From positions 30,961 to 94,960 of the IMG/VR virus record IMGVR_UViG_3300020264_000005: DNA of 64,000 nt; one strand, 5' to 3'. A model generated the notes under the pieces. The model saw only the letters and a list, made by a program, of their open reading frames with translations, searched no databases and was not told where the DNA came from. The DNA is from a virus. Lineage: Duplodnaviria; Caudoviricetes. Positions 1 to 53,372 of the stretch are shown here, in pieces. Within the stretch, counting starts at the first letter, position 1. Every line of letters starts with the position of its first letter. The position numbers and the translations under genes were made by a program.

Positions 1-58
1 AGAGTAACACCTGTCACCAACGGTACAAGGAAAAGCGTCGTTGGGTGGTGTGTGGGCA

Positions 59-113
59 GACAGTTCGCGTAGTGTCCACAATTGTGGCACAGCACCCCCA
101 AACCGTGTATATT
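59..113 (+). promoter_or_regulatory. Early promoter cassette copy 1 (imperfect inverted repeat + -10 box)
   Basis: GACAGTT-CGCG-TAGTGTCCACA at 59-80 and TATATT at 108-113; same geometry as 10 other copies. Confidence 0.75.
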
Positions 114-136
114 AAGAGAGTCAAAGCAAGGCACCC

Positions 137-373
137 ATGCAACTCTTCACTTCCGCCACCAAGATCGACTACTATCCTGTCGGCACTGGCAAGCGTTTCG
201 TTAAGAAAGTCGTCTGGCATCCTGGCTCTGAGTCTGAGATGGTCTTCTTCTCCACTAAAGTCAAAACTGAGATGAAGTACGAAGTTGAGAACTACATTGC
301 CAACGGTGCTGTAGTTACTGCCATCAACACTGAAGAGTATCAGGGCAAGGATTACTCTCCCGCTGCCTGCTGA
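137..373 (+). CDS. hypothetical early protein
   Basis: 78-aa ORF directly after the promoter cassette; phage-like codon usage. Confidence 0.75.
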   Translation: MQLFTSATKIDYYPVGTGKRFVKKVVWHPGSESEMVFFSTKVKTEMKYEVENYIANGAVVTAINTEEYQGKDYSPAAC

Positions 374-456
374 TCACACGTGGCTGCACAGGACTGGGAG
401 ACTGGTTCACAGCGTAAGACCACACCCCCTACAAACACATTCATCGAGGATTACCC

Positions 457-1143
457 ATGGATCTTAACACTTTCAAGCAACAGTATGCCACGATCAAAGC
501 ACGTGGTTACATCAAAACCCATCGCAAAGGTAACACTGGCGTTGGTCACTCTCTCGAACAAGAACTAGGATTGACAGAGAACTGTATCTCTGGTCCTGAT
601 CTTGAAGGATATGAACTGAAAGCAGCACGTAAAGGTGCTGGTGGTAAGCAAACACTGTTCACCAAAGAGGGTGATTGGGTAGTACCCCAAAGAGATTATA
701 TTGAAACGTATGGTTTCCCTCACACCACAAAGCAAGGTGAGTTGAGTGGACAATCTACTGTAACTAAAACTGTCAACAAGCGTGGTCTCCAGATTGTTAC
801 CACTGATGACTATTGTGCTGTGTGTCATGGCAACGTTGTCATCGTTATGTGGGACTGGGACACTCTGTTGAACGTGTTCGCAAACAAGTTCCCTGCATGT
901 GTGAAGGTATTTGCTGATGTTGAGAAGCGTGATGGTGTGGAATACTTCCACTACAATGAAGCATACCGTCTCATCAGCACTGATAAGAACCTGTTCCGCA
1001 CTGCAATAGAGAACGATGTGATCGCTATTGACATTCGTATGCGTACACAGAAGAAAATTGGCAAATCTATTCGTAATCGTGGTACTGCATTCCGCATGAA
1101 TCATGGTAGAATGGAAGAACTATTCATTAAAGAGGAACTTTGA
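457..1143 (+). CDS. MvaI/BcnI-family restriction endonuclease
   Basis: GNTGVGHSLEQELGLTEN...PDLEGYELKA and C-terminal RNRGTAFR motifs typical of the family; GAGG SD upstream; coupled to a methyltransferase. Confidence 0.8.
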   Translation: MDLNTFKQQYATIKARGYIKTHRKGNTGVGHSLEQELGLTENCISGPDLEGYELKAARKGAGGKQTLFTKEGDWVVPQRDYIETYGFPHTTKQGELSGQSTVTKTVNKRGLQIVTTDDYCAVCHGNVVIVMWDWDTLLNVFANKFPACVKVFADVEKRDGVEYFHYNEAYRLISTDKNLFRTAIENDVIAIDIRMRTQKKIGKSIRNRGTAFRMNHGRMEELFIKEEL

Positions 1144-3006: not shown

Positions 3007-3019
3007 TCCTTGCTATACT
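2961..3019 (+). promoter_or_regulatory. Early promoter cassette copy 3
   Basis: TGTGCCAGCT-GACG-TAGTGGTAC at 2961-2983; TATACT at 3014-3019. Confidence 0.75.
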
Positions 3020-3041
3020 AAGTTCATCAACACAAGACACC

Positions 3042-3503
3042 ATGACCACCGCCACCTTCTCTGAATTCTGTGCCACTGCTGAAGCACGTGAGCAAATCGC
3101 TGCTAATGCTCTCAAGTATACTCAAATGCTCTGTGAAGCACTAGAGCAAGACTTTGTTGAGACTAGCATCAAACGTGCTCAGTTCCTGATGCCTAGCAGT
3201 GACAATCCCAAATACTGGGAAGAGCGCATTGCTGAGTACAAAGCAGGCAAAGATGTGTACAAGTTCAGCATTGTGACTGGACGTAAGTATCACAAGATTG
3301 TTCAGACATGCTCTGATGGTAGTAAGTCTGTCCACGCATTTGTTGACAAGAACACTGGTGAACTGTACAAGGCAGCGTCTTGGAAAGCACCTGCTAAGGA
3401 TGTTCGTTTCGATCTCCGTATCATCAAAGAGCGTGAGTTTGTTCTGGAGAACTGTGACTGGGCAGGCGGTTATCTCTACAAGAATGCATATTACGAGGGT
3501 TGA
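3042..3503 (+). CDS. conserved cyanophage hypothetical protein
   Basis: GRKYHKIV..SVHAFVDKNTGELYKAASWKAPAK motif; start moved to ATG 3042, downstream of the promoter. Confidence 0.8.
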   Translation: MTTATFSEFCATAEAREQIAANALKYTQMLCEALEQDFVETSIKRAQFLMPSSDNPKYWEERIAEYKAGKDVYKFSIVTGRKYHKIVQTCSDGSKSVHAFVDKNTGELYKAASWKAPAKDVRFDLRIIKEREFVLENCDWAGGYLYKNAYYEG

Positions 3504-13072: not shown

Positions 13073-13465
13073 ATGCCTTCCTTTCAGACATTTAAAGATC
13101 TGAGCATCACGTTCAAAAAACACCCTGTATCAGACGATCTGGTACAGGTGAAAGATAAGGCAGCTATCATTCAATCGATAACTGCCTTACTTTTGACGAA
13201 TAGGGGAGAAAGACCATTCAAACCAAACCTAGGGTCAGGCATTAGAGAGTCGTTATTTGAACCATTGGATTATGCCACTGGAGGTTTAATCAGAGGACAG
13301 GTTATTGATTGTATCAATAGATACGAACCAAGAATCGAATTAGATAATGTATCAGTTGAACCTGATGAATTAAACAATGGATACAACGTAGAAATCTTCT
13401 TTACTATTGTAGGAAGAGATGACGTACCAGAGGCAGTAGAATTCTTCTTAGAGCGTACACGATAA
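13073..13465 (+). CDS. g25: baseplate wedge subunit gp25
   Basis: LLTNRGERPFKPNLGS..INRYEPRI; late promoter ATAAATA at 13043-13049. Confidence 0.95.
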   Translation: MPSFQTFKDLSITFKKHPVSDDLVQVKDKAAIIQSITALLLTNRGERPFKPNLGSGIRESLFEPLDYATGGLIRGQVIDCINRYEPRIELDNVSVEPDELNNGYNVEIFFTIVGRDDVPEAVEFFLERTR

Positions 13466-15261
13466 TGCCTTATACTCAGGTTGCCAACTTAGATTTTGAA
13501 CAAATCAAAACAGCTCTTAAAGATTACTTAAGAGCACAGTCGGATTTTACTGACTATGACTTCGAGGGTTCTGCATTAGCGACCATCTTAGACACACTCG
13601 CTTATAATACCTATTATACGGCGTTTAACACTAATATGGTAGTCAATGAACTATTCATTGATTCTGCCACCTTGAGAGACAACGTAGTAGCGATTGCGAA
13701 GCAACTAGGGTACAGACCCAAGTCGAAGACCGCACCTACTGCTTATATCTCTTTTGATGTAAATTATAATCAACAAACAACAGACACAGAACTCCTGCTG
13801 AAGAAAGGAACTGGTTTTGTTGCTAACTATGACAATACTTTGTATCGTTATGTTGTATTGAACGATGCAAAGGCACAAGTATCAAATGGTGTTGCATCAT
13901 TCACTGACCTTCCTGTAAAAGAAGGTGCATTGATTACTGACACTTATACTATTAACGGTGCATCGAAGAACCAGAGATTTGTTCTCGATAACCCAAACAT
14001 CGATGCTAATACTGTTTCAGTAAAAGTATTCCCTACTGGTGGTTCATTCAACGAACCATATTTGGTTGCAGATAACATCTTGAATGTAGATGGCAACTCA
14101 AAAATCTTCTTCCTTGACGAGATCGAGGATGACAGATACGAAATCATCATGGGTGATGGCATTCTAGGTAAGAAACTAGAGAATGGTGCTGTCATGGAGG
14201 TGACTTATCTGGTCACTAATGGTCCTGCATCCAATAGTGTACGTACATTTGTCTTCAGCGGTGTCCTAGAGAACACACAAGGCATCACTCCTGCTGGTTT
14301 TAGCACTTCTATCACAAATGTAACACCTGCTGCTGGAGGCGAAGATCAGGAGACTACAGCGAAGATCAAGTTTAATGCTCCTAAGTCATACGGTGCTCAG
14401 GACAGAGCAGTGACTGTAGATGACTACGGTGCTATTGTACGTAATGTATATCCTGCTACTAGTGACATCATTGTATTTGGTGGTGAGGATCAAGAACCAC
14501 CAATGTATGGTAAGGTATTCATTTCATTGAAACCAAAGGATGCAGCGTACCTAACGTCTGTTACTAAGAAGCAAATCATTGCAGATTTGAAGAAGTATGT
14601 TGTTGCATCAGTAGAACCAGTCCTAATCGACCCTTCTATTCTGATCATCGAACTAAATAGCAAGATTTATTACAACAGTTTAATTACAGACAAGACACCT
14701 GCACAGATTAGAGATGCAGTAATTGGTTCTGTACAGTCATACCTTGACACATCTGACACAGAAAAGTTCAACGGTAAGTTTAGACATAGTAAAGTTGCTG
14801 GTGTTATTGACGATACAGATCGTTCAATCAACTCCAACCTTACTGATGTTACAATGAGAAAGGATTTCTATCCTCAACTCAATTCAACTTTCTATTATGA
14901 GATCTGTTTCCAGAATGCATTCGACCTAGAGTGTGATGAATCAGTCCTGTCGTCTACTGGTTTTAGAGTTACTGAGTACCCTAATTTCGATGTTTATATC
15001 GAAGACAGGGGTGGTAAAATTGTCCTATATAGACTAGACTCTTCTACTGGCGAAAAAGTAGTCCTAGACGATAATGTTGGGGATATTGATTATGAAAAAG
15101 GTGAACTTCAAATGTATGATTTGACTATCATTAAAGGTACATATTTCGATAATCGTATTTCAGTAAGAGTAAAGCCTAGGTCTAAAGACGTTAAGGCACT
15201 TCGTGAAGTTTACTTAGATGTAGACGTTGCCAATTCATCGTTCACTGCATACAAAGAGTAG
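13465..15261 (+). CDS. g6: baseplate wedge subunit gp6
   Basis: LDFEQIK..FTDYDFEGS..LAYNTYY; QDRAVTVDDY. Confidence 0.95.
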   Translation: MPYTQVANLDFEQIKTALKDYLRAQSDFTDYDFEGSALATILDTLAYNTYYTAFNTNMVVNELFIDSATLRDNVVAIAKQLGYRPKSKTAPTAYISFDVNYNQQTTDTELLLKKGTGFVANYDNTLYRYVVLNDAKAQVSNGVASFTDLPVKEGALITDTYTINGASKNQRFVLDNPNIDANTVSVKVFPTGGSFNEPYLVADNILNVDGNSKIFFLDEIEDDRYEIIMGDGILGKKLENGAVMEVTYLVTNGPASNSVRTFVFSGVLENTQGITPAGFSTSITNVTPAAGGEDQETTAKIKFNAPKSYGAQDRAVTVDDYGAIVRNVYPATSDIIVFGGEDQEPPMYGKVFISLKPKDAAYLTSVTKKQIIADLKKYVVASVEPVLIDPSILIIELNSKIYYNSLITDKTPAQIRDAVIGSVQSYLDTSDTEKFNGKFRHSKVAGVIDDTDRSINSNLTDVTMRKDFYPQLNSTFYYEICFQNAFDLECDESVLSSTGFRVTEYPNFDVYIEDRGGKIVLYRLDSSTGEKVVLDDNVGDIDYEKGELQMYDLTIIKGTYFDNRISVRVKPRSKDVKALREVYLDVDVANSSFTAYKE

Positions 15262-26113: not shown

Positions 26114-27922
26114 ATGGCTGCTATTATCTCAGATAAATTTAGAATTTTTAATGCGAAGCAATTCCTTGAATCGCTAACTGAAGGCGCTACCGATACTAGC
26201 GCCGAAAGAACAAGAATGTACTTCTTTGTGGGTCGCCCACAACCTTGGAAGGCATATCTCGAACTCTACGGACAAGCTGGAGGAAACTTCACAGTAGGCA
26301 ACGAAATTTACGTTGGTACTTATGGATCCACAGCATTCCGTGCCACTATTGCTGGAGTCCTAGATACCGCTCTTCTTCTTTCCGACGTTTTCCCAAATAC
26401 CACCTCTACTCCTTCTCTCGGTAGCACCATTCAGGAGACTGCTGACGGTGGTTCAACTACGACTGGTGTCACTGCCTCAACTGGTGTCTACCGTTATGCA
26501 ACTGAAGAGATTCCACCTCTTCCACTAGACAACCAGACTGAGAAACTAAACGTTTACGACGAGATCATCGCAGCAAAGCGTATCGGCAATGCATTCGCAA
26601 GAACTGTAATCCGCCGTTACAACTGGGACACTGTTGCTAACCCAAGATTCGACATGTGGAAGCCTGACTACTCCGCAACCCCTGCTGGTGGCGGTCAAGT
26701 CGGTAAGCAGACCGCAACTGGCGCTGACGCTATTGCTAATGCTAAGTTCTACGTAATGAACTCTGACTACGAAGTATTCAAGTGCCTCTATAATGGTGAA
26801 GGTCCTGGCAACCTTTCTGGTCAGGATGCTACCGAAGAACCAAAGACCTCACTTGGTAACTATAACTCATCAACTGGTCTCTACACTGAGACTTCTGGTG
26901 CTGGTTACATCTGGAAGTTCATGTACCAGATGCCAACCGATGACGTTCTGAGATTCCTTTCTTCAGACTTCATGCCAATCACCCTGTCAACCGCAGGTTC
27001 TACCCGTCAGGCAGTAGAAGGTATTGCAGTTGCTGGTTCACTTGACGTTGCTCTAATCGAGAACGCTGGTGCTAACCTACCTGCTTCACAGACTTTCTAC
27101 ACCAGTGTAAAGGGTGACGGTACAGGTGCTGTTGTTGCTATCACCACTGATGGTTCTGGCACCATGACCGCTGCATCGATGCAAGCACGTGGTTCAGGTT
27201 ATACCTATGCTAACGTACTACTCGGTAACGGCAACCTCTTCTCTGATGCTGGTTTGACGACTCCAGTTGGTACTCCTGCTAACGCAGTTGGTGCTATCGA
27301 GATCGTTCTTCCTCCTCAAGGTGGTCACGGTTCCGACCACGAACTAGAACTCAATGGTAAGCGTGTGATGACTAACATCCGCCTAACCTACGCAGAAGGT
27401 TCTGGTGACTTCCCTGTTGATAACGACTTCCGTAGAATCGGTATTATCAAGGATCCTCTTAACTACGGTACTACCACTCCTTGTACTGCTGACACCCGTT
27501 CAGGTCTCAAGGCAGTTAAGATCACTGGTGCAACCGCAGATTACATCCCTGACGAAGTAATCACCCAGACCGTAACTAACGGTACTGCAAAAGGCACCGT
27601 TGTTTCTTGGACCTTGGATCAGGGTTCATCAACCGCAGGTGTACTTAAGTACATCCAAACCGTTGATGCACACACCGATCAGGGTGTTGTAAGAGACTTC
27701 GAGAGCAATGGTTCTAACGCTATCTCTGGTGAGTCTTCCGCAGCAGCAGGTAACGTCGAAACTGGTTACGGCGGTACGCTTCTCGGTTCTACCTTCTCAT
27801 CAGGTCTTGCAAATCCTGAGATCGAACCTAACTCTGGTGACATCATCTATGTTGAGAACAGAAGACTAATCACCCGTGCTCCTGACCAGATTGAAGATAT
27901 CAAACTAGTCATCGAATTCTGA
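26114..27922 (+). CDS. g8: baseplate wedge subunit gp8
   Basis: MAAIISDKFRIFNA..FYVMNSDYEVFKCLYN..GYIWKFMY..QIEDIKLVIEF. Confidence 0.95.
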   Translation: MAAIISDKFRIFNAKQFLESLTEGATDTSAERTRMYFFVGRPQPWKAYLELYGQAGGNFTVGNEIYVGTYGSTAFRATIAGVLDTALLLSDVFPNTTSTPSLGSTIQETADGGSTTTGVTASTGVYRYATEEIPPLPLDNQTEKLNVYDEIIAAKRIGNAFARTVIRRYNWDTVANPRFDMWKPDYSATPAGGGQVGKQTATGADAIANAKFYVMNSDYEVFKCLYNGEGPGNLSGQDATEEPKTSLGNYNSSTGLYTETSGAGYIWKFMYQMPTDDVLRFLSSDFMPITLSTAGSTRQAVEGIAVAGSLDVALIENAGANLPASQTFYTSVKGDGTGAVVAITTDGSGTMTAASMQARGSGYTYANVLLGNGNLFSDAGLTTPVGTPANAVGAIEIVLPPQGGHGSDHELELNGKRVMTNIRLTYAEGSGDFPVDNDFRRIGIIKDPLNYGTTTPCTADTRSGLKAVKITGATADYIPDEVITQTVTNGTAKGTVVSWTLDQGSSTAGVLKYIQTVDAHTDQGVVRDFESNGSNAISGESSAAAGNVETGYGGTLLGSTFSSGLANPEIEPNSGDIIYVENRRLITRAPDQIEDIKLVIEF

Positions 27923-41702: not shown

Positions 41703-44700
41703 ATGAGTTTTAATATCAATTCCGACAAAGAGTTTATCAGGGGTGGCGATCCCAAACTCATCGGTGATAATGAACTTACAATCAGAGGTGGTACTGGATC
41801 ATCTGAGCGCGAAATCTTGCGTACTCAGCTTGACGAGACCACTGGATTACCACGTGTCGGTATTAACCGAACTGGTCAAAGAGTTAACAACATTAGCATC
41901 ACTACGCCAGGTGCTGGTTTCACCACACCACCTAGTGTTATTATTGGACCACCTAACGTAGCAGGTGGCATCCAAGCACTTGCGTCTGCCTTCATCTTTA
42001 ACGGTGAAGTCGTTAACATCGCTATCAATAATCCTGGCTCAGGATATACTGTCGCTCCCTCTGTAACAATTACTAGTGAAAGTGGTGTTGGTGCAACCGC
42101 AGAAGCATTCCTCGATACTGTTGACTTTGAACTTGACATCAACGGTGCTATTAGAACCTCTACGTCTATCATTTCTGACACGGCGAGAATTCTAAACCTC
42201 GACATTGACAACTTCATTACGCCTGACGCCAACTTCAGAGCACCATATCTGAAGAACTTCATGAACAACACTGGTATCCCTTGGGATGGCAATGTTATTA
42301 TTCAGGAAAATTCCTACAGATACTTTGGTGCTAACCTCTATCAGGCACTGAATACTGGTAAGACTGACGCAGACAAAGCTCCTACACACACTGATGGTAT
42401 TGAACTAAACGGAGAAGTTCAGTTCAGACACATCGGTTTCCGCGTTGTTGACGAGAATTCATTCGCTTATAATCAAACTGGCGATGATGGTATCTTCCCT
42501 CGCTCAGTAACTCCTCTACTTGGTGATAGATCAAACAAAATTGCAACTACAGAATACGTTCTGAATCTAGCAACGAATGACGTTGGTGGTCGTATTTACG
42601 TTTCACAGCAGATTGGTAGTGACGAGAACGATGGTCGCTCTGCTGTAAACCCAGTTAGAACAATTAAAAAAGCATGTCAGTTGGCATGGCAGACACCTGG
42701 CGTCAAAGAAACTGTTATTGTTTCTGGTGGTGATTATGTAGAAGATAACCCAATCTCTATCCCACCTGATGCATCCATTGTTGGTGATAACTTGCGTCTG
42801 GTAATTATCAGACCTGCCAACCCTGGCAAACACATCATGAAGTTCGGTGATAAGAACTACATCATTGGTGTTACTTATAGAGATAAAGTTGACTCCATTG
42901 GAGATCCAGTCTCCACGTGGGACTTTGCTATGGTCTTCGACGACAAGCAAAGAATTATTATCGACCAAGACACCAATGGAGACTTTGGTGTTAACTTCCC
43001 AGTTGGTCACCAAATCTTTGGTCCTGATCAGTTCCGTGTTGACTTCCAAGAGAACACTGGTCTCTCATCACTACAAACTGGTCTAGAAGTAGTTGGTGTT
43101 AACACTGGTTCTAGAGCAAAAATTATTGGTGTTAAATTTGACACTGAACTTGGTGCAAGTGCATACACAACTGGTGAACTCGACGTTACCCTGACTAGTG
43201 GTTCTTTCCTAGAGGGTGAGAGTTTCAACTATATTGTTACAGGTTCAGCAGGAACAGATCTTGGACTTACTGTAACTGAAACTGCTGGTGAGAACAAGAT
43301 TAAACTAACGGATAATCCATCTTCGGATATTCCACCAGGTACATATATCTACCTTGATGATACAGATGATATTGACTTCACTCAAGGTTTCTACGAAGTC
43401 AAAGAAATTGATGATGACAATGCTCCTAACTATTGGATCGTAGAAGTTGTACCTATTCTGAATGCTAGTACATGGGATTCAACCAGAACAGCAAATATCG
43501 ATCTTCTGTCAGCAAACATTGTTACAGAAACAGTTGATACTACTTCACTATCTTCAATTAGAGCAGAAGGTGAAGTTGTAAGTGTCGATGAAGATATTGT
43601 ATCACAACTACCTATTCAAAAGATTGATTTCTCTCTACAGGGAGATCCAAGCATTGCAACTGGTGGTTTCCAGAATGAGCAGTTTGGTAATGCAGAAGAT
43701 CTTGGTGGTATTGTAATCTTCACCAACGAACTGGTTGGTAGAGATAACTTCCACGACTTCAAAGAAGGTCAAGAAATTGAGATCTCTGGTCTTCCAACCT
43801 CTGCACCTGACCTATCATTCCTTAATGGTAAGCAAAGAATTTATAAAGTTCTAGAAGATGCTGATGGTCGTGCAAGACGTTTTGTTATTCCTAAGAAGTT
43901 TCCTGCTCTAACACAGGCAGACTTTGATCCTGGTCAAAATGCAACAGTAACTTCTTACTCCAAGTCAGTTACTCTATCACTACTCAACTCACCAAACACC
44001 TTCCCACTATCTACTCCTGTAGAAAGAAGGTTCCAAGATGCTTGTACTTTCTTACGTAACAACAGAGACTTCATTGCTGATGAAGTTGTAGGAAGAATCA
44101 ATGATGAATTTAAGACCACTCATTACTCAGTATATGATATTGGTGGTACTCCAACTGCATCATACACTCCATCTGATGTAGGATATGACCCAGCATCTGG
44201 TCTAGTTACATTCACTGTCAACAATCATGGATTGAATGATGGTGACGGTATCAGAATTGCTGATAATGGTATTGTGTTCACTTGTGCCATGGATGGTTAC
44301 AAGACTGAACACCCTGCACCACAACCACATCATTTCTCCAGTGGTAAGTCACTACCTATTCTGTCATCAACTACTAATACATTCACAGTTAATGTAGGAC
44401 AGACTCAACCAAACCAAACTTTCACTCCTTCTAACGCAGTATATGATCCATCAACTGGTGATTTAACTCTGGAGATTGGCACTCACAGTTTGTCTACTGG
44501 TGAGGGTATTGTATTTGAACCAAATTCACTGAAGTTCACTTGCAACATGGACGGTAACCAATCCGTCAAGTCATATCCACGTCCTGGCATTGACCCATAC
44601 GCTGGAAAGTCAGTACCTCTAACTGGAGTTACTGATACATCGATCACCATGAATGTTGGTGTATCGAGACCTAATCAATATTTCACTCCAACTGATGCAC

Positions 44701-47700
44701 AGTATAATGCTGCTACTGGTGACCTAACCCTTACTGTCGGACAGCATGGTTTGGGAGTTGGTAGAAGCGTTGTTATTAACGACAACTCTCTAACGTTTAC
44801 CTGTGATCAGGACGGCAATGCTACCCAGCATACCTATCCTCGTTCTGGTTCTGACCCATATTCAGGTAAGTCTATTGAGATTACTGCTGTTGGAGCATCA
44901 ACTCACACCCCAACTGATGCTGATTATGACGCATCAACTGGTGTTATTGTATTCACTGTCAACAGTCACGGATTCTCTAATGGTGATTATGTCAAGATTG
45001 ACGATAATGCACTAACTTATACTTGTGATCTAGATGGTGATGCTACTCAGCATACCTATCCTAGAACAAATCACGATATTGCAAGCGGTCGCTGGTTTGA
45101 GATCAATAACAAAACTGCCAACACCTTTGAGATTAATGTTGGTGGTTCTTCTTACACTGGTACTCACACATTCGTAAGTGCTGCTAGCAATTCACTACAG
45201 AGACAAGACGGAACCTTCACTGTCAATGTTGGCGCAGCAGGTTCTGCATCTGGTTCTACTCACACGTTTGTTACCGCTGCATCTGGTGCAGTTAAGCATG
45301 AACCACAGTCACCACACACCTTCGCTGGTGCTGTAACTGGTGCTGTTAAGCACCTACCAAGATCTGCTCACCAGTTCAAGAGAGCAGTCGCTGACTCAAT
45401 TACTGTTGGTGGTTCTGACTTCAAGATCTTCCTCGGAACGACTAGTGATGTACACACTTATGTAAGTGGTGGTACTGTCAAGTTTGGTGGACAAACTTAT
45501 AATATCAGTGCATTTACTTATGATAACGTTGCTTCTGGTACTGCAACTATCACTACCTCTGCTCCAATTCCTGGCTTAGCAGAAGATTCGATGGTCGAAC
45601 TAGATGGTATTCTTCTATCATGTAGTTCAGGACAGAAAGAATATCCAGCATTCAATATCAAGGGTAGTGATGATCAGTGTCGTCAAGACGTTGTTCACTT
45701 CATCAACGCTCTAATTAGAGACCTAGAATTTGGTTCTAACTTCAATATTATTGAAGCAGCTAAGAAGTACATTGTTGGTGCGAAGATTGGATTCGTTGAG
45801 AACGAAATTATCCAAACAGTTCGTGGTATTGAGTATGCTAGACAACTAGCAATTCTCGCAATGAGAAACTGGAGAGAGGATAATGGTACTCCTAGTGATC
45901 CTATCTACACTCCAAAGTATTCTGCACTACCAAGATACTTCGATGACACTGTAATTACATCAACTGCTACCAATGCACAAGGTGTTGCTTGTGATGATGT
46001 AAGATCTGCTATCGATACTCTAGCATACCTTTGGGTAGATGTTCTAGCAAACAATGCATCTGGTACTTACTTGGATGCAGCATACTTGATCGCAAGAAAC
46101 AAGGATGCTATTGCTGATCAGGCACTTGCTGATACCGAAGCAAGATATCCATCATTGAGACTCAGTGATGTCAACCAGAGAAAGTGCCGTAGAGACGTTA
46201 GATTTATTCTTGCTTCTCTAATCAGAGACCTTGTGCTTGGTGGCAACTCTGGTATCATCACCAACGCTGAACTATATTACACGGGTTCTGCACTGACTGG
46301 TGTTGATGCATCTGTACTACCACAGACAAGATATGCATATGAGAGAGTTGAATTCTACGCCAAGGCGGCGATGCGTAACTGGTCTGGTGGTGACGTTATC
46401 CAGACTACTCCATCATTTGCAACATACGATTCAACCAATGGAACTGTAGTTGTTAACTTCCCAGATCCAACTCAGTCAATCACGACGAATGACAGAATTG
46501 CATTCCAAGAGGGTGCTCTAACATTCCAGTGTGACATGGGTTCTGGTGCTGCTAACCATGCAAGCCCAACTGATAACGATAGAAACTATGGTAAGAGTCT
46601 CGCAATTACTAACGTTACATCCAGCAGTGGAGTTACTAGTGTAACATGTAATGTTGGTGATGCAGGAACTGCTGCTGGTGTAGCACATACATTTGTAAGT
46701 GCTCTGACAAATGCAACTCTTATCATCTACAACCCAATTGATATCAGCACCCCAGTTCCTAAGTTTGAGGATTGGAACACCCTAGTTGATGCTAGTGGTT
46801 CTGCTGCTATTGCGGTTCATACCCCAACTGATGCTACTTACGATCCTTCTAATGGTGACTTTACAGTTACTGTTAACAATCATGGATTGTCTACATCAAA
46901 TACAATCCGTATTGCACCAGAATCGTTTGTATTCACCTGTGCAATGGACGGCAATAAGACCGAACATGCTCTACCAGGCATCGGTCAGAATGCATACGGA
47001 AACTCACTACAAATTACTGGAACTACCACAAACACTTACACAGTAAACGTTGGTGCTTCTGGTCCAGGTCGTGGGTGGACTCCATCTGCAGCTGATTATA
47101 ACCCAGCGACTGGTGATCTGACTTTGACCGTTGGCGAAAGTCACACCCTGTCTGTAGGCGAAGGAATTATCATTGAAGATAATTCACTGAACTTCACCTG
47201 CGACATGGATAACAATGACTCTGTTAAGTCATATCCACGTCCTGGCATCGATCCATTTGCAGGAAGATCAATGCCTGTTACGGCAGTGACTGCAGATACG
47301 ATCACTGTTAATGCTGGTATATCGAGACCTAACCAATACTTCACTCCAAGTGCAGTTACCTATGATGCTAACAATGGTGACATGACTGTTACCGTGGGTC
47401 AGCATGGTCTAGGTGTTGGACGCAATGTTGTACTTGAGAATAATTCGTTCACCTTCACCTGTGATCAAGACGGTAACGCAACTCAGCACACCTATCCACG
47501 TCCTGGCAGTGACCCTCAAGCAGGTAAGTCAATCGCTATCACTGCTGTTGGTGCTACTCAGCATACAGTTACAGATGCTGATTATAATGCAGCAACTGGC
47601 AACTTGCAACTAACCGTCTCAAGTCACGGTTTTGCAAATGGCGATTACATTAAGGTTGCAGATGGTTCTCTAACCTTTACATGCGATCTAGATGGCAATA

Positions 47701-50700
47701 CAGCACAGAAATCATATCCTCGTGCTGGATATGATCGTCCATCTGGTCGCTGGATGCAAATCAGCAATGTAACTACAAATACATTCGATATCAACGTTGG
47801 TCCTTCTTCTTACACAGGTGCTCATACTTTTGTAAGTGCTACATCTAATGGCGTTGATCGTCAAGATGGTACATTCACTATCAACGTAGGTAATGCTGGT
47901 TCTGCATCTGGTTCTACTCACCAGTTTGTATCAGCAACTACTAATGCTATTAAGCACGAACCTCAGTCAGCACATACTTTTGTAAATGCAACCTCGAATG
48001 CAGTCAAGCATCTCCCACAATCTGCACATACATTTGTAAGAACTACACAAGATTCTATCAACGTATATGCACCAGGATCTGCTCCTCTATGTGCAAACGT
48101 AGAGTCTAGCATCTCTACTGAGATGGAAATTCTAGATGGCATTCTTGAGTATGCTTCTAACCCAGATTCATCCACAGCAATTGAGCCTGGCTCACTTACC
48201 AAGAATACTGGAACTCTCTTTGATACCTCAGATATTATTACATATCCTGATAACTTCATCTATGACCAGAACAATGTCAGGATGGCGATTCGTGGTAACT
48301 ACGATGACTATCCAATCATTGAGGCATCTCCATATACCCAGAACTCTTCTGTTATCTCCTTCCTAGGTGGTGGCGGTGCTCTGGTTGATGGTTCTAAAGT
48401 TAAGCAACCTAACTGTCCTTTCCCTGGCTTGGAACTTGACGGTACTGCGACATTCCCTAATCAGGGTAAGTCGATGGTTGCATCCGCATTCACCATCGTC
48501 TCCTTTGGTGGTACAGGATATAAGGTTATCGAAGATGGTTATACCCAGTTGGTTTCTGTCTTCGTTATCTTCTGTGCTGACGGTGTTCTTGCTGAGTCTG
48601 GTGGTTATTGCTCCATCACGAACTCTGCTACTAACTTCGGTATCTTCGCTCTACGTGGTAGAGGATTCAGAAGAGAAGCATACACATTTGACGTTGGTAC
48701 AATTACCAATGTTTCTTCTACTCCTACTGGTAGAACTATCTTCACCGTTGGTGGACTTGGTAGAGAACCACTAGAGCACTATGTTGTCAAGATCGACAAC
48801 CACTATAACACCAACCCAGACATCGAATTCTTCATCGATTCTGTTGGTGCTGTTACGGTTGGTCCTCCTTTCTCTGCACAACTTACTATTGACAATGGTA
48901 CTGGCGATGCTGTTGATGTAACCAACGTTACTAGTGGTCAGCAGATCTCACCTGGCTCACTGGTTGGTGAGACTATCAGACTACACAGACCATCTATTGT
49001 TAACTCCTCCTCCCACACTTGGGAATTCGCAGGTTCTGGTACTAACTATCTTGCACTACCTGAAAACGGTGGTACTAAGGTTGTTGCTAACGAGCAGGTA
49101 TCTGAAGACTACGGTAGAGTCTACTGTTCAGGTACTGACGAACTTGGTGACTTCAAGGTTGGTACTTTCGCACAGATCGAGAACAGAACTGGTGCTATTA
49201 CCTTCACGGGTACTGTTACCATCTCTGAAGTTGAATTCTTGAAACTGAAAGGTGGTGACACGGTTGTTACTGGTTTCGACGCATCCAACACTCTTGGTGG
49301 TGCTAACTCCAGTGACTCCAAACTACCTACTCAGAAGGCAGTTAGAGATTATATCACTAACAACCTTGGACCTTACATCAACAAACCATACTCCACGAAC
49401 GCTGTTCCTAGAGCACTGGTTGAACTTACTGACTCTGGTAAGATTTCCGTTGACCAGATCCCAGCACTCAGACCATTTGAAGTTTACACTGTTGCTAACC
49501 AACAGGAAAGACTTGCAATTGAAGGCGCACTTGCTGGTGACATCGCGATTGAACAGGATACATCAACGTCATTCATTCTTAACAATGACCTTGATAGTCA
49601 GTTCCTCTCCTTCAGTGTTGATACTTCACTACAGTTTACTCTCGGTGATATCTTCACTGGTAGCGTATCTGGTGGTCGTATGCAGGCTACCGAATACAGA
49701 CAGGGTGTTGTATTCTCAATCAATATTAGTGACGGTGGTTCTGGTTACTCATCTCCTCCTAACATCACCATTACTGGTGGTAACCCACAGTCTGGTTCAG
49801 TCGAGGCAAAGGCAGAAGCAGTCATTGCAAACGGTGAAGTTGTTGCAATCGATATCATTGCATTCAACGGATTCAAGGGTGGTAAAGGATACACCATTCC
49901 ACCTACTGTAACCATTGCTGCTCCAGCAGGATCTGGTTTACAGGCACAAGCAAATGCACTAATTGAATCCAGACTGTATGGTGACATTGTAAACAGAATC
50001 AAACTAGAAGATACCGATCAATTCGATTCTAGTGATGTTCCTTCAGTTACTATTGATATTGACAGAGCAGTCAATACATCCTCTAATGATGCTAACAACT
50101 GGGTATCACTATCCTCTAACCAGATTTCTGCAACTGACATCGTATCTGGTGTTATTGAATCTGACAGATTGGCATCTGGTGGTGCTGCAAACTCCTTCAC
50201 GTTCCTACGTGGTGACCAGAACTTCGCACTAGCAGTTCAGTCTATCAAGGGTGCTGAGAAGAGATACTTTGCAAAACTAACTCAGAACTTCAATAGTGGT
50301 TCTAGTGAGATGGTATTCGCCACTCTACCTGAAGCACTAATCGGTCACGAGATTCTAAACAACGTTGTTGGTATCCAACCTAACACTAATATTACTGGTG
50401 TTCTTACAACTGGTGGATCAACAACAATCTCACTAAACAACCCAGCAACTGCATCAATCTCTGCTGGTACTGTTATCGAATTTGAGCGTGGTGCTTCACC
50501 TCTCATCTTTGATTCTACTTACACTCAGGGTAACTTCGTTGATACGATTGTTATTTCTAACGGTGGTACTGGATTCACCAACGGTCAGTTCTTCGATGTT
50601 GATCTAACTGGTGGTACTGGTACTGGACTCAAGTGTAACCTAACCATTGCTGGTGGTGCTATCAATGAACTAACCGTAACTGACGGTGGTACTGGATTCG

Positions 50701-53372
50701 ATGCTGACTTCAATATCACTCAGGCACCAACTGAAATTGGCGCTGGTTCTGGTCTAGTTCTACTTGCTAAGGTCAGCACTGTCAACAGACAGTATGCAAA
50801 CGTTGCAATGGACGTTCAGAGAGTTTCTGATCTTACCATTTCATCCGACCTTTACGGTACTATTGGTGTTGCAAGATTCAAGAAATCTCAGTTCACCATT
50901 GGTGCATCAGGTAATGGTTCAGTTGACCTAAACGTTGGTGCTGACTCTGGTCTTGACGCTGACCTTCTGGACGGTGCTCAGGGTGCATTCTACCTCAACT
51001 CTGGAAACCAGAATGCTGGTACTCTACCAACTGACCGACTCGCTGGTACGTATAACATCAGCGTATCTGGTTCTGCTGGTAACGCACTGAGACTACAAAC
51101 TGGTACTAACAACCCAACGTCCAACCCAACTCCAGATAACTTCGTTGGTGGTATTGTTGCTAACACGGTTAACAACAGTTCTAACCAGTTGAGTGACGGT
51201 GGTGCTAAGAACCTAGTAATGACCATCAGAGCAGGTGGTTCTAGTTTCGATGCTTCCTTCGGTGGTGTAAGACAACTTGCATTTACTGATAACGATAACA
51301 TGTGGCTCCGTGGTTCTGGAACTGGTGTTACCAGCTTCGGTTCATGGGCACTCATGTGGAACTCCCTGAACGATGGTATCGGATCAGGTCTAGACGCTGA
51401 CAAACTTGATAACAAGCAAGGCACTTGGTATCAGAATGCTCTGAACATTAACCTAGGAACTCTATCTGATAACAGACTACCTGACTGGATCGACGAAACT
51501 GCATTTAAGGATAAGATCGAAATCAGATCTTACAATGGTGATACTCGTTACAAGATCTACATTTCTGGTCAGATCCTAAATGCTACCCCATTCACGCCAG
51601 GCAACACAGTCAACCTGTACAATGCTAATGGTCAGGGTACTGGTGTTATTGATATTGACAACATCATTATTAACAATGACACGCAAGATAATGCAAATGA
51701 TTATACCATCATTATTGGTAGACTGACAACTGGTAACTTTGTTGGTGCTGAAACGATTGGTACAGCATCAGATAGAAAAGAATTCCAAGACTTTACTATT
51801 GATATTGGTAACACTATTCCTGTTGCTACTCTTGAGAGTGACGGATCTACCGCAAACCTCAGACTTGGTAGAAAGGATGGTATTGCTTCCTCACCAGGCA
51901 TCTACTTCAGTTCTTCTGCACTGACTGCAAACTACAATGCTGCAATTGTATCATCTGGTGGTACTGCAACCGATGGTTCTGGTTCACTAAACGTTCAGGT
52001 AGAAAACGCAGATGCATTCACTCAGAATGGATCCGTTATCTGGAACGCAGGTAACATTGAATTCCAGTCAGCAAACATTGCAGACACTGGAGTCAAGCGT
52101 GATGGCAACGGTGGATTCTCCGCTGGAACTATCACCCTAGATGTTGCTGGTGGTGCTGAACTGATTGGTGCTGCTTCACTCAACGTCCTGAAAGAAGGCG
52201 ACACAATGACTGGTGGTCTAACCATCGGTACTGGTTCTGCTGCTACACAGGGTCTATCGGTTTCGGGTGATGTTGACTTCCTCGCTACCTTAGATGTTAC
52301 TGGAGATCTGAATGTTGATAGTGGCACACTCTTCGTTGATGTATCACAGAACAACATTGGTATTAACACAGGAACTACTCTGATTGCTGGTCTAACTGTA
52401 GACATCCAAGGTGGAACAGTTGGTGCTCTACGCCTACAAGGACATGATGGAGCAAGTCATCACATGTACTTCGATGGCAGTAAGAGTGAATACTTCGATG
52501 ATGCAAATCATGCGATGATGTTCCTCTCCTCTGGATCACCATCAAGTACACATCCTGGTCAAGGCGCACACTGGATCTTCAACGGTAGAGCATCTGATAG
52601 AGATTTCATCTTCCGCAACAACTCTAATAACAAACTAACCATTCAAGGTGACGGTGGTCTCAATATCACAAACAGTGGTACTAACAGAGCAATCCAAGCA
52701 GATAATGATATCGCAACGAATTCAAACTTCGTTGCTGGTAATGCTGGTGATAACGGTGGTGCTGGTCTATCACTACTTGGTGCGACTGGATTCAGAAACT
52801 ACAGAGTCGGCAGCAACTTTGTTGCTAATAACATGTTCGCTGTTGAATACTCTAGTGGAGTTGGTGGTAACTCCTTCTCTGGTGGAACTATTATCGCAGG
52901 TCTGTTTGATGGTTCAAACGCAAGAGTTGGTATTAACACTACTACCCTCCAAGGTAATGACCCAGAAGCAAATAACCAACTAAGGGAATACATCCTGAAC
53001 GTTGGTGGTGACATGAACATCAATGGTCAACTATTCCAGAACAACTCTGAATTCGTTACCTCCAGATGGACAGAATCACCTAACGGCAATGATATCTACA
53101 GAGCATCTAAAGTTGGTATTGGTTTCACTACCGATAAAGATCCTGGCTATGCACTAGATGTTGAGGGAGACTTCAACGTTGTTGGCGCTACTTACATTGG
53201 TGGAGTCAAACAGTATCAAGACTCACAGGGTATCATCAAAGCATACAATGACACCATTCTGTATGATGTTGACTTGGATGCTAACAGCAACAGTTTCTCC
53301 AACGGACCAATTATTGTTGCCTCTGGTGTTGACATTGTATTTGGCAATAATGCCAAGTGGACCATCTTATAA
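41703..53372 (+). CDS. giant tail fibre/virion protein (beta-helix core with inserted repeats)
   Basis: YVSQQIGSDENDG..RTIKKA beta-helix cap; GLDADLLDG and VGINT fibre motifs; internal repeats. Confidence 0.85.
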   Translation: MSFNINSDKEFIRGGDPKLIGDNELTIRGGTGSSEREILRTQLDETTGLPRVGINRTGQRVNNISITTPGAGFTTPPSVIIGPPNVAGGIQALASAFIFNGEVVNIAINNPGSGYTVAPSVTITSESGVGATAEAFLDTVDFELDINGAIRTSTSIISDTARILNLDIDNFITPDANFRAPYLKNFMNNTGIPWDGNVIIQENSYRYFGANLYQALNTGKTDADKAPTHTDGIELNGEVQFRHIGFRVVDENSFAYNQTGDDGIFPRSVTPLLGDRSNKIATTEYVLNLATNDVGGRIYVSQQIGSDENDGRSAVNPVRTIKKACQLAWQTPGVKETVIVSGGDYVEDNPISIPPDASIVGDNLRLVIIRPANPGKHIMKFGDKNYIIGVTYRDKVDSIGDPVSTWDFAMVFDDKQRIIIDQDTNGDFGVNFPVGHQIFGPDQFRVDFQENTGLSSLQTGLEVVGVNTGSRAKIIGVKFDTELGASAYTTGELDVTLTSGSFLEGESFNYIVTGSAGTDLGLTVTETAGENKIKLTDNPSSDIPPGTYIYLDDTDDIDFTQGFYEVKEIDDDNAPNYWIVEVVPILNASTWDSTRTANIDLLSANIVTETVDTTSLSSIRAEGEVVSVDEDIVSQLPIQKIDFSLQGDPSIATGGFQNEQFGNAEDLGGIVIFTNELVGRDNFHDFKEGQEIEISGLPTSAPDLSFLNGKQRIYKVLEDADGRARRFVIPKKFPALTQADFDPGQNATVTSYSKSVTLSLLNSPNTFPLSTPVERRFQDACTFLRNNRDFIADEVVGRINDEFKTTHYSVYDIGGTPTASYTPSDVGYDPASGLVTFTVNNHGLNDGDGIRIADNGIVFTCAMDGYKTEHPAPQPHHFSSGKSLPILSSTTNTFTVNVGQTQPNQTFTPSNAVYDPSTGDLTLEIGTHSLSTGEGIVFEPNSLKFTCNMDGNQSVKSYPRPGIDPYAGKSVPLTGVTDTSITMNVGVSRPNQYFTPTDAQYNAATGDLTLTVGQHGLGVGRSVVINDNSLTFTCDQDGNATQHTYPRSGSDPYSGKSIEITAVGASTHTPTDADYDASTGVIVFTVNSHGFSNGDYVKIDDNALTYTCDLDGDATQHTYPRTNHDIASGRWFEINNKTANTFEINVGGSSYTGTHTFVSAASNSLQRQDGTFTVNVGAAGSASGSTHTFVTAASGAVKHEPQSPHTFAGAVTGAVKHLPRSAHQFKRAVADSITVGGSDFKIFLGTTSDVHTYVSGGTVKFGGQTYNISAFTYDNVASGTATITTSAPIPGLAEDSMVELDGILLSCSSGQKEYPAFNIKGSDDQCRQDVVHFINALIRDLEFGSNFNIIEAAKKYIVGAKIGFVENEIIQTVRGIEYARQLAILAMRNWREDNGTPSDPIYTPKYSALPRYFDDTVITSTATNAQGVACDDVRSAIDTLAYLWVDVLANNASGTYLDAAYLIARNKDAIADQALADTEARYPSLRLSDVNQRKCRRDVRFILASLIRDLVLGGNSGIITNAELYYTGSALTGVDASVLPQTRYAYERVEFYAKAAMRNWSGGDVIQTTPSFATYDSTNGTVVVNFPDPTQSITTNDRIAFQEGALTFQCDMGSGAANHASPTDNDRNYGKSLAITNVTSSSGVTSVTCNVGDAGTAAGVAHTFVSALTNATLIIYNPIDISTPVPKFEDWNTLVDASGSAAIAVHTPTDATYDPSNGDFTVTVNNHGLSTSNTIRIAPESFVFTCAMDGNKTEHALPGIGQNAYGNSLQITGTTTNTYTVNVGASGPGRGWTPSAADYNPATGDLTLTVGESHTLSVGEGIIIEDNSLNFTCDMDNNDSVKSYPRPGIDPFAGRSMPVTAVTADTITVNAGISRPNQYFTPSAVTYDANNGDMTVTVGQHGLGVGRNVVLENNSFTFTCDQDGNATQHTYPRPGSDPQAGKSIAITAVGATQHTVTDADYNAATGNLQLTVSSHGFANGDYIKVADGSLTFTCDLDGNTAQKSYPRAGYDRPSGRWMQISNVTTNTFDINVGPSSYTGAHTFVSATSNGVDRQDGTFTINVGNAGSASGSTHQFVSATTNAIKHEPQSAHTFVNATSNAVKHLPQSAHTFVRTTQDSINVYAPGSAPLCANVESSISTEMEILDGILEYASNPDSSTAIEPGSLTKNTGTLFDTSDIITYPDNFIYDQNNVRMAIRGNYDDYPIIEASPYTQNSSVISFLGGGGALVDGSKVKQPNCPFPGLELDGTATFPNQGKSMVASAFTIVSFGGTGYKVIEDGYTQLVSVFVIFCADGVLAESGGYCSITNSATNFGIFALRGRGFRREAYTFDVGTITNVSSTPTGRTIFTVGGLGREPLEHYVVKIDNHYNTNPDIEFFIDSVGAVTVGPPFSAQLTIDNGTGDAVDVTNVTSGQQISPGSLVGETIRLHRPSIVNSSSHTWEFAGSGTNYLALPENGGTKVVANEQVSEDYGRVYCSGTDELGDFKVGTFAQIENRTGAITFTGTVTISEVEFLKLKGGDTVVTGFDASNTLGGANSSDSKLPTQKAVRDYITNNLGPYINKPYSTNAVPRALVELTDSGKISVDQIPALRPFEVYTVANQQERLAIEGALAGDIAIEQDTSTSFILNNDLDSQFLSFSVDTSLQFTLGDIFTGSVSGGRMQATEYRQGVVFSINISDGGSGYSSPPNITITGGNPQSGSVEAKAEAVIANGEVVAIDIIAFNGFKGGKGYTIPPTVTIAAPAGSGLQAQANALIESRLYGDIVNRIKLEDTDQFDSSDVPSVTIDIDRAVNTSSNDANNWVSLSSNQISATDIVSGVIESDRLASGGAANSFTFLRGDQNFALAVQSIKGAEKRYFAKLTQNFNSGSSEMVFATLPEALIGHEILNNVVGIQPNTNITGVLTTGGSTTISLNNPATASISAGTVIEFERGASPLIFDSTYTQGNFVDTIVISNGGTGFTNGQFFDVDLTGGTGTGLKCNLTIAGGAINELTVTDGGTGFDADFNITQAPTEIGAGSGLVLLAKVSTVNRQYANVAMDVQRVSDLTISSDLYGTIGVARFKKSQFTIGASGNGSVDLNVGADSGLDADLLDGAQGAFYLNSGNQNAGTLPTDRLAGTYNISVSGSAGNALRLQTGTNNPTSNPTPDNFVGGIVANTVNNSSNQLSDGGAKNLVMTIRAGGSSFDASFGGVRQLAFTDNDNMWLRGSGTGVTSFGSWALMWNSLNDGIGSGLDADKLDNKQGTWYQNALNINLGTLSDNRLPDWIDETAFKDKIEIRSYNGDTRYKIYISGQILNATPFTPGNTVNLYNANGQGTGVIDIDNIIINNDTQDNANDYTIIIGRLTTGNFVGAETIGTASDRKEFQDFTIDIGNTIPVATLESDGSTANLRLGRKDGIASSPGIYFSSSALTANYNAAIVSSGGTATDGSGSLNVQVENADAFTQNGSVIWNAGNIEFQSANIADTGVKRDGNGGFSAGTITLDVAGGAELIGAASLNVLKEGDTMTGGLTIGTGSAATQGLSVSGDVDFLATLDVTGDLNVDSGTLFVDVSQNNIGINTGTTLIAGLTVDIQGGTVGALRLQGHDGASHHMYFDGSKSEYFDDANHAMMFLSSGSPSSTHPGQGAHWIFNGRASDRDFIFRNNSNNKLTIQGDGGLNITNSGTNRAIQADNDIATNSNFVAGNAGDNGGAGLSLLGATGFRNYRVGSNFVANNMFAVEYSSGVGGNSFSGGTIIAGLFDGSNARVGINTTTLQGNDPEANNQLREYILNVGGDMNINGQLFQNNSEFVTSRWTESPNGNDIYRASKVGIGFTTDKDPGYALDVEGDFNVVGATYIGGVKQYQDSQGIIKAYNDTILYDVDLDANSNSFSNGPIIVASGVDIVFGNNAKWTIL
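44161..48065 (+). repeat. Duplicated ~1.25-kb intragenic block, each holding four nested repeat domains
   Basis: About 44161-45400 vs 46815-48065; similar at DNA level, e.g. TCATATCCACGTCCTGGCAT in both; lone intact domain at about 46401-46720. Confidence 0.9.

What the first reader, a model, noticed from the sequence alone, without database searches (positions are those of the whole stretch)
44161..48065. Nested 'Russian-doll' domain architecture 1[2[3[4]3]2]1, present twice
Seen: a lone intact domain at ~46401-46720 defines the unit as TP..A.YD...G..FxCxxD..H..P..G.S..I..VxxNVG..HTFVSA. Each 1.25-kb block has four N-terminal parts in a row followed by four closing strands in a row (THTFVSAASNSL, THTFVTAASGAV, PHTFAGAVTGAV, AHQFKRAVADSI). 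Unit 3 breaks before its TFTVNVG strand and resumes with exactly that strand after unit 4 closes. The simplest reading is serial insertion of each domain into a loop of the previous one. Inference: the chain runs out and back to form a four-domain stalk, so the virion would carry monomeric antenna-like arms whose length can change by recombination. The recurring Cys/Asp/His could form a metal site.
Basis: partly seen in the sequence, partly recalled or inferred. Interest (0 to 1): 0.75.

Follow-up and report, generated by a model that had tools for sequence, protein, structure and literature searches.

The report
Self-nested beta-barrels in cyanophage fibre protein
A 3,889-residue tail-fibre-type protein of a marine T4-like cyanophage carries two arms, each built from four copies of one small beta-barrel domain inserted inside one another like Russian dolls; this way of building a protein is rare, is known from cyanobacterial RNA polymerase, and I found no paper describing it for virus particles.

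Summary
ORF 41703-53372 (3,889 aa, PHROG "tail fiber protein") holds nine copies of one ~100-aa domain: one contiguous copy and two blocks, each with four openings followed by four closing HTF strands.

The nested reading is supported.
- AlphaFold2 folds block 1 at mean pLDDT 91.5 and pTM 0.83.
- A second model repeats this. It adds a fifth, divergent outer barrel (aa 807-814 plus 1237-1314) that encloses block 1.
- In 74 related ORFs a stack (nested) parse gives 3 order violations; a serial parse gives 70.
- Relatives carry one to six such blocks and nests about ten deep.

Pfam has no family for the domain, and no solved structure matches by sequence.

The closest known architecture is the recursively nested hybrid-motif array of cyanobacterial RNA polymerase Si3 (six levels).

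Not tested: the monomeric "antenna" role, the metal site, and length change by recombination.

This scan has already noted the same build on other DNA (33 notes in at least 23 genomes).

The parts
41703..53372 (+). ORF of 3,889 aa (P0001), a tail-fibre-type virion protein that holds all the parts below
   Evidence: phrog_5342 'tail fiber protein' E=0 over aa 2120-3889; it lies downstream of the gp6-, gp7- and gp8-like baseplate genes
44031..44090 (+). Helix before block 1 (aa 777-796), tentatively the first part of helical host module 1
   Evidence: aligns to aa 1456-1475 of module 2 with score 39 against a null maximum of 35; pLDDT is low in the model
44121..44144 (+). First strand of outer barrel 0 (aa 807-814)
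   Evidence: strand at 38-45 in model 2; barrel hits span model 36/37..534-546
44163..44417 (+). Block 1, barrel 1, N-terminal part (aa 821-905), broken after its NVG strand
   Evidence: barrel hits at model 7..427 and 48..467
44421..44678 (+). Block 1, barrel 2, N-terminal part (aa 907-992), broken after its NVG strand
   Evidence: barrel hits at model 91..408 and 133..450
44682..44900 (+). Block 1, barrel 3, N-terminal part (aa 994-1066), broken before its NVG strand
   Evidence: hit at model 180..366
44904..45206 (+). Block 1, barrel 4 (aa 1068-1168), complete and contiguous, the innermost doll
45207..45311 (+). Return piece of barrel 3: NVG strand plus HTF closer (aa 1169-1203)
   Evidence: giving this piece to unit 3 scores 30-45 bits better than any other assignment
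45312..45365 (+). Closer of barrel 2 (aa 1204-1221)
   Evidence: strands 394-399 and 404-406 lie inside barrel hits 91..408
45366..45410 (+). Closer of barrel 1 (aa 1222-1236)
   Evidence: strands 412-417 and 422-424 lie inside barrel hits 7..427
45411..45644 (+). Remainder of outer barrel 0 (aa 1237-1314), divergent in sequence
45633..45872 (+). Helical module 1 resumes after the barrels (aa 1311-1390, YP..C.QD motif)
   Evidence: aligns to aa 1479-1560 with score 108 against a null maximum of 47
46404..46730 (+). Lone contiguous barrel (aa 1568-1676)
   Evidence: parsed as one complete domain
46818..47072 (+). Block 2, barrel 1, N-terminal part (aa 1706-1790)
   Evidence: 53% identical to block 1 barrel 1
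47076..47336 (+). Block 2, barrel 2, N-terminal part (aa 1792-1878)
   Evidence: 67% identical to block 1 barrel 2
47340..47558 (+). Block 2, barrel 3, N-terminal part (aa 1880-1952), broken before its NVG strand
   Evidence: 74% identical to block 1 barrel 3
47562..47864 (+). Block 2, barrel 4, complete (aa 1954-2054)
   Evidence: 59% identical to block 1 barrel 4
47865..48068 (+). Block 2 return pieces: NVG plus closer of barrel 3 (aa 2055-2089), closer of barrel 2 (2090-2107), closer of barrel 1 (2108-2122)
   Evidence: block 2 was not folded, so its topology is inferred from block 1 (63% identical)

Best explanation
The region encodes nine copies of one ~100-residue, six-stranded beta-barrel domain. 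Its fold is nearest to the E1 FCCH barrel and the phage endosialidase barrel, and Pfam has no family for it. Eight copies form two self-nested arrays. In each array, barrel 2 is inserted between the NVG strand and the final HTF strand of barrel 1. Barrel 3 sits at the same place in barrel 2. Barrel 4 sits one strand earlier in barrel 3. After the complete barrel 4, the chain runs back and supplies the missing strands of barrels 3, 2 and 1 in that order. Each junction between barrels is therefore crossed twice by the chain, and both ends of the array lie at its base. Block 1 is itself plugged in after the first strand of a fifth, divergent barrel. That barrel appears to sit in a loop of a helical module. 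Shown by models and comparison: the topology, the fold class, and the conservation of this grammar in relatives. Inferred: the array is a stiff arm of four to five barrels projecting from the fibre or baseplate protein, and it works as a spacer or a weak cell-surface contact. Because it is an insert with adjacent ends, whole arms or sub-arms can be gained, lost or duplicated without disturbing the host protein. The invariant Cys and closer His (with His/Asp) may latch each returning strand, possibly through a metal; this is speculative.
For: Sequence grammar: exactly 9 openings, 9 Cys motifs and 9 closers, with a wide score gap to background. AlphaFold2 of aa 812-1240 with a 35-row alignment gives mean pLDDT 91.5 and pTM 0.83, and every closer is a strand at block-mean pLDDT 86-98. 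VIA-align against 48,161 PDB chains finds the same barrel class at 253..357-360, 180..366, 91..408 (seven chains, 69-84 aligned residues, rmsd 2.8-3.7) and 1-7..425-429 (for example the 90-residue chain 4pgo_A: 70 aligned, rmsd 2.7). A second model of aa 770-1445 repeats units 1, 2 and 4 and shows outer barrel 0 at 36/37..534-546. A BFVD model of a cyanophage homologue superposes over 323 columns at rmsd 4.2 and TMq 0.64. In 74 unique related ORFs (2,134 tokens, 453 closed domains), stack assignment gives 3 order violations and queue assignment gives 70. The profile-HMM score favours giving unit 3 the first return piece by 30-45 bits. Units are positionally orthologous between the two blocks. 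Relatives carry 1 block (cultured phage Sf-CH1b), 3-4 blocks or 6 blocks (P0002), and depths of 1-4 and about 10. Precedent: in the nested Si3 array of cyanobacterial RNA polymerase, AlphaFold agreed with the crystal structure at 1.08 A, and the array forms a 150 A arm.
Confidence: 0.82

Rival explanations
1. Strand exchange between chains. The protein is a trimeric fibre, and the returning HTF strands of one chain complete the open barrels of a neighbouring chain. The nest would then be an inter-subunit zipper, not a monomeric arm.
For: The C-terminal half carries fibre-type motifs (GLDADLLDG.QG at aa 3084 and 3230) and matches a tail-fibre PHROG, and fibres are usually trimers (general knowledge). 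Only monomer prediction was available.
Against: The monomer model closes every barrel within one chain at pLDDT 86-98 and pTM 0.83. The reverse order of the return pieces is what an intrachain hairpin path needs. The same grammar occurs in proteins annotated as baseplate wedge gp7.
Confidence: 0.07
2. Plain tandem array. Four incomplete or five-stranded domains lie in a row, followed by a separate small beta domain made of the four HTF hairpins.
For: Each closer has two short strands 18 residues apart, which could in principle pair into a meander. Sequence alone cannot assign the closers of units 1 and 2.
Against: Single-domain PDB barrels align to model ranges 91..408 and 7..427 with 60-85 residues at rmsd 2.5-3.7. 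This is impossible if the closers were a separate domain. The displaced NVG strand of unit 3 sits exactly before the second closer. In relatives, pieces resumed after an insert always match what the most recently opened domain lacks (3 against 70 violations).
Confidence: 0.03
3. Prediction artefact. AlphaFold2 forces a repeated motif into a familiar barrel, and the real structure is different, for example an intertwined fibre shaft.
For: Both models come from one method. The alignment has only 35 related rows. No solved structure matches by sequence.
Against: Confidence is very high and all five models agree (89.9-91.5). An independent BFVD model of a 42%-identical homologue superposes. The bracket grammar is a sequence-level fact that a shaft model does not explain. 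AlphaFold was accurate for the analogous Si3 nest.
Confidence: 0.05

Closest known systems
Si3 insertion of cyanobacterial RNA polymerase beta' (RpoC2): recursively inserted sandwich-barrel hybrid motifs (PMC10895346, PMC10120043; surveyed in PMC13114784)
   Same: One small beta domain family is inserted into copies of itself. Several copies are discontinuous in sequence. The result is an elongated arm (150 x 50 A) whose two ends meet at the base inside a host element. A survey of 2.7 million domains reports six nesting levels as its deepest example.
   Different: The fold and family differ: no RNA polymerase chain appeared among the listed structural matches. The host is a virion fibre or baseplate protein, not an enzyme's trigger loop. 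The array occurs as a four-deep cassette duplicated within the protein (twice here, up to six times in relatives). Relatives reach about ten levels.
E1 ubiquitin-activating enzyme FCCH domain (Pfam PF16190) and FCCH-like decoration domains of phage tail tube proteins (PMC13576161)
   Different: The sequence match is far below Pfam's threshold (17.2 against 29.5 bits, over 20 residues, in one of three copies). FCCH has no conserved FxCxxD / YPR / HTF signature, and I found no report of self-nesting for it.
Beta-barrel domain of phage endosialidases (phi92, 4hiz_A)
   Different: It is a single copy hosted by a beta-propeller, with no detectable sequence relation.
Split domains of RTX adhesins that project ligand-binding domains (PMC12077191)
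   Same: A host beta domain is split so that an inserted domain emerges sideways from a long fibrillar surface protein.
   Different: There is one level of insertion, and the insert is a different, ligand-binding fold, not a copy of the host.

Membership tests
Recursive (nested) self-insertion architecture, as in RNA polymerase Si3 | Copies of one domain family are interrupted by complete copies of the same family, and the missing parts follow in reverse order | tested here: met
   Motif order in both blocks; stack parse against queue parse; structural ranges 253..358, 180..366, 91..408 and 7..427
Recursive (nested) self-insertion architecture, as in RNA polymerase Si3 | The domains are sandwich-barrel hybrid motifs (SBHM / hybrid motif) | tested here: inconclusive
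   No RNA polymerase or hybrid-motif chain is among the 50 listed rows of either VIA search.
Recursive (nested) self-insertion architecture, as in RNA polymerase Si3 | Located in the trigger loop of RNA polymerase beta' | tested here: not met
   The host is a tail-fibre-type virion protein in a baseplate gene cluster. The resemblance is therefore one of architecture only, not family membership
E1_FCCH (Pfam PF16190) | Sequence score at or above Pfam's gathering threshold | tested here: not met
   17.2 bits against a cut-off of 29.5, E 0.0054, residues 18-37 only, in one of three copies scanned. The whole protein has no Pfam hit
E1_FCCH (Pfam PF16190) | [quoted passage not shown] | tested here: inconclusive
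PHROG 5342, tail fiber protein of T4-like cyanophages | Profile match over the C-terminal fibre part | tested here: met
   E = 0, 5345.9 bits, aa 2120-3889 against profile positions 1548-3319 of 3319. The cultured orthologue in Sf-CH1b is annotated as tail fiber protein
Structural metal site (His/Cys/Asp/His) | Four ligands conserved and within bonding distance of one ion | not testable with these tools
   Conservation only. Cys is present in 384/384 domains and the closer His in 400/400, but both counts are biased by the detection matrices. The hairpin His is present in 365/400 and lies outside all matrices. Asp at C+3 is present in 327/384. There is no co-loss signal. No coordinates were available to measure distances

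The most novel reading that the evidence does not exclude
This barrel family is a general building kit by which cyanomyovirus virion proteins grow as trees of domains and not as chains. The four-deep cassette seen here would be the modest end of a series that reaches ten or more levels in relatives, beyond the six-level case given in the ECOD survey. Each returning strand would be latched to its barrel by the invariant Cys/His pair, possibly through a metal ion. That would give mechanically locked arms whose length and number are reset by gain or loss of balanced cassettes.
Probability: 0.3. Interest if true: 0.8.

Novelty: new variant of a known kind. Interest (0 to 1): 0.6.

Why it matters
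Deep self-nesting of a domain is rare. A 2026 survey of 2.7 million classified domains gives six levels in cyanobacterial RNA polymerase as its deepest example and mentions no virus. Here the same principle appears in a different fold, in the particle of abundant marine viruses. It comes as a duplicated cassette and with a simple sequence grammar that can be read like brackets.

It matters in three ways.
- It explains part of why these baseplate and fibre genes are so large and why domain databases do not annotate them.
- It predicts side arms that cryo-EM of cultured relatives (Sf-CH1b, S-RIM44, P-SSM2) could look for.
- It offers a natural design for stiff, length-adjustable protein arms whose two ends meet, so that they can be inserted into any loop.

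For this window alone the case is modest: 4 to 5 levels. The scan has seen the same build in many other cyanophage genomes.

Tried and rejected
- Pfam on the whole protein gave no hit. On single barrels it gave only sub-threshold hits.
- PDB searches by sequence, with a single sequence and with a 35-row barrel profile, returned only noise.
- Foldseek against PDB returned only strings of FN3-like domains at TM about 0.1. This says nothing about topology.
- A first regex tokeniser was too loose; for example H.Y inside QHTYPR was counted as a closer. It was replaced by weight matrices.
- The serial (queue) reading of the closers was rejected on 70 violations against 3.
- I thought the relatives L094/L096 lacked a clean five-barrel cassette present in L089. 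A direct alignment shows many gaps and complex differences, so I do not claim a clean balanced indel.
- Aligning the three-deep nests of L052/L055/L058 to block 1 gave chained alignments through neighbouring single barrels. This was not informative.
- The weak closer-like motif VHTYVSGG (aa 1250) scores only 3.4 with the closer matrix. The outer barrel was established from the second model, not from this motif.
- The helical host domain was predicted at pLDDT below 60, so "nest inside a helical module" rests only on an internal sequence alignment.
- There is no co-variation between loss of the hairpin His and loss of Asp, so the metal idea gets no support beyond conservation.
- On divergent family members the parser misses many closers (268 domains left open and 258 orphan tokens).
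Full report
WHERE IT IS

The window is the structural module of a T4-like marine cyanomyovirus. It lies at positions 30961-94960 of a 94,960-base IMG/VR virus record that CheckV estimates to be 49% complete. Genes matching baseplate wedge PHROGs (gp6-like at 13465-15261, gp8-like at 26114-27922) are interleaved with ORFs of 3,598, 2,707, 1,603 and 3,889 aa. The finding lies in the last of these, 41703-53372 (+), protein P0001. Its C-terminal 1,770 residues match phrog_5342 "tail fiber protein" with E = 0. The closest DNA relatives are Synechococcus phages. A tblastn search with block 1 hits 365 phage records, and all of those whose organism name is tallied are cyanophages or marine viruses.

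THE OBSERVATION

- FxCxxD occurs at aa 859, 945, 1032, 1106 and at 1744, 1831, 1918, 1992.
- H[TQ]F occurs nine times in 3,889 residues, against 0.32 expected from composition. None of 2,000 shuffles reaches nine. All nine sit at the predicted places: 1155, 1187, 1205, 1223; 1662; 2041, 2073, 2091, 2109.
- Weight matrices for five sub-motifs of the unit find exactly nine openings, nine Cys motifs and nine closers. The five are A (TPxxAxYDxxxG), B (FxCxxD..YP), C (G[KR]xxxI), D (the NVG strand) and E (the HTF closer). The next-best scores in the protein are near zero.
- In both blocks unit 3 stops before its NVG strand, and that strand reappears directly after unit 4 closes (aa 1169 and 2055).

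IS IT NESTED? STRUCTURE

I built an alignment of 35 four-unit blocks: the two from the window and 33 non-redundant ones from 79 IMG/VR loci. I then folded aa 812-1240. The model has mean pLDDT 91.5 and pTM 0.83. All five models lie between 89.9 and 91.5. Every closer is a beta strand, and the 10-residue block means over the return region are 86-98.

| Model range | Unit | Support |
|---|---|---|
| 180..366 | 3 | one row |
| 91..408 | 2 | seven rows, 69-84 aligned residues, rmsd 2.8-3.7 |
| 1-7..425-429 | 1 | for example the 90-residue chain 4pgo_A: 70 aligned, rmsd 2.7 |

A single compact barrel cannot align 70-85 residues across a 320- or 420-residue span unless the N-terminal part and the distant closer are packed together. 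The refuting result, closers forming a domain of their own, is not seen.

An independent BFVD model of a 42%-identical cyanophage protein superposes over 323 columns at rmsd 4.2.

IS IT NESTED? SEQUENCE GRAMMAR

By sequence alone, any assignment that gives unit 3 the first return piece (NVG plus HTF) beats the others by 30-45 bits against a profile of contiguous barrels. The closers of units 1 and 2 cannot be told apart this way.

I tokenised 74 unique related ORFs (180,657 aa; 2,134 tokens; 453 closed domains). If each resumed piece is given to the most recently opened unfinished domain (a stack), there are 3 order violations. If it is given to the oldest open domain (a queue), there are 70. 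The next barrel is inserted after the NVG strand 138 times, after the C strand 79 times, after the Cys/YPR motif 49 times, and after the first hairpin 7 times.

Caveats:
- The loci are related to one another, and the matrices were trained on them.
- On 150 more divergent cluster representatives many closers are missed, and the contrast falls to 44 against 93.

By eye the same grammar is visible in gp7 of the cultured Prochlorococcus phage P-SSM2.

VARIATION

The units are positionally orthologous between the two blocks: 53, 67, 74 and 59% identity for like units, against 31-57% for unlike units. DNA identity between the blocks is 56%. The four-deep nest was therefore duplicated as a whole, long ago.

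The number of blocks per protein varies:
- The cultured orthologue in Synechococcus phage Sf-CH1b has one block plus the lone barrel.
- Other relatives have three or four blocks.
- One 4,764-aa protein has six perfect blocks.

Depth also varies:
- Three-deep and two-deep nests occur.
- A family of ORFs longer than 7,000 aa nests about ten deep, with four different insertion sites and non-barrel modules inside the nest.

I could not show a clean balanced indel between homologues. Change of length by recombination therefore remains an inference from these counts.

The family is small. Only 648 of 1.84 billion cluster representatives match the barrel profile.

SURROUNDINGS

The segment after block 1 (aa 1311-1390) aligns to aa 1479-1560 with score 108 against a null maximum of 47. 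The helix before block 1 (aa 777-796) aligns to aa 1456-1475 with score 39 against 35. In the second copy these two parts are adjacent. In the first copy they are 515 residues apart. Barrel 0 with its nest therefore appears to be an insert in a helical module.

Earlier notes of this scan read these helical modules as phycobiliprotein-like. I did not test that, and the helices are at low confidence in my model.

HOW IT MOST LIKELY WORKS

Shown: the chain goes out through unfinished barrels and comes back finishing them. Every junction is therefore crossed twice, and the two ends of the array meet.

Inferred:
- The array is a stiff arm of four to five barrels projecting from the fibre protein. 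It would act as a spacer or a low-affinity contact with the cell surface.
- An arm with adjacent ends is a cassette that can be added, lost or copied without disturbing its host.
- The solved Si3 arm of cyanobacterial RNA polymerase is built the same way, is 150 A long, and was predicted by AlphaFold to within 1.08 A.

Whether the arm is monomeric on the virion is open. The C-terminal part has fibre-type motifs, and fibres are usually trimers. Strand exchange between chains therefore cannot be excluded, though the monomer model closes every barrel by itself.

The metal idea rests on conservation only. Across 400 unique domains:
- Cys and the closer His are present in all, but both counts are biased by the detection matrices.
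- The hairpin His is present in 91% and lies outside the matrices.
- Asp at C+3 is present in 85%.
- There is no co-loss signal.

COMPARISON WITH WHAT IS KNOWN

Architecture: the closest case is the recursive insertion of hybrid-motif domains in Si3 of cyanobacterial RpoC2. It has eight domains, four of them discontinuous. A survey of 2.7 million domains presents its six levels as the deepest example and mentions no phage.

Fold: the nearest is the FCCH barrel, by structure and by language-model features. The Pfam threshold is not met, so I do not file the domain as FCCH.

Literature: seven full-text searches found no description of this architecture in cyanophage or other virion proteins. The library lacks many subscription papers.

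WITHIN THIS SCAN

The same self-nested barrels have already been noted in 33 findings from at least 23 other genomes, with the same closest known case. I reached Si3 through the literature before reading those notes. They agree with my reading but are not independent evidence.

VERDICT

- The nested reading is supported by two models and by comparative grammar.
- The function, the oligomeric state and the metal site are untested.
- Measured against the literature, this is a new variant of a known kind of architecture. The window's own depth is modest (4, or 5 with the outer barrel).

Noticed in passing
outside the window: G000:C1:4128-6509 (+), upstream of the window in the same virus record: A second giant open frame (at least 4,520 aa) in the same phage carries six more copies of the barrel. 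Four of them are spaced like another four-deep block (69% identity for its innermost barrel).
   Followed up: partly
window 44031-44090 with 45633-45872, and 46068-46382: Two helical modules share the motif YP..(6-9 residues)..C.[RQ]D and end in AMRNW. In the first module the barrel nest splits it by 515 residues. Earlier scan notes call these modules phycobiliprotein-like; I did not test that.
   Followed up: partly
window 41910-42080 and 49737-49930: A repeated motif G.G[YF]..PP.V.I (aa 70, 112, 2679, 2727) occurs in pairs near the N-terminus and in the C-terminal half of the same protein. The second pair overlaps a weak PHROG match to 'head closure Hc2'.
   Followed up: no
window 50952-50990 and 51390-51430: The fibre-type motif SGLDAD.LD..QG..Y occurs twice (aa 3084 and 3230), which suggests a trimeric shaft in the C-terminal part.
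   Followed up: no
L091, L092, L093 (IMG/VR contigs 3300020472_000016, 3300012950_000002, 3300020470_000690), whole 21.2-kb loci: One reading frame stays open over the entire 21,200-base locus, so the protein exceeds 7,066 aa. It holds 23 barrel openings, nests about ten deep, and contains a gap of about 676 aa inside a barrel that includes a LamG-like stretch and helical modules.
   Followed up: partly
P0002 (4,764 aa, cluster representative): This protein carries six perfectly parsed four-deep blocks (24 barrels), the highest block count seen.
   Followed up: no
window 48069-49400 (aa 2123-2560): Directly after block 2 comes a Gly-rich stretch with several Cys residues (for example GGGGALVDGS) that reads like a right-handed beta-helix or lyase-like domain. 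It was not analysed.
   Followed up: no
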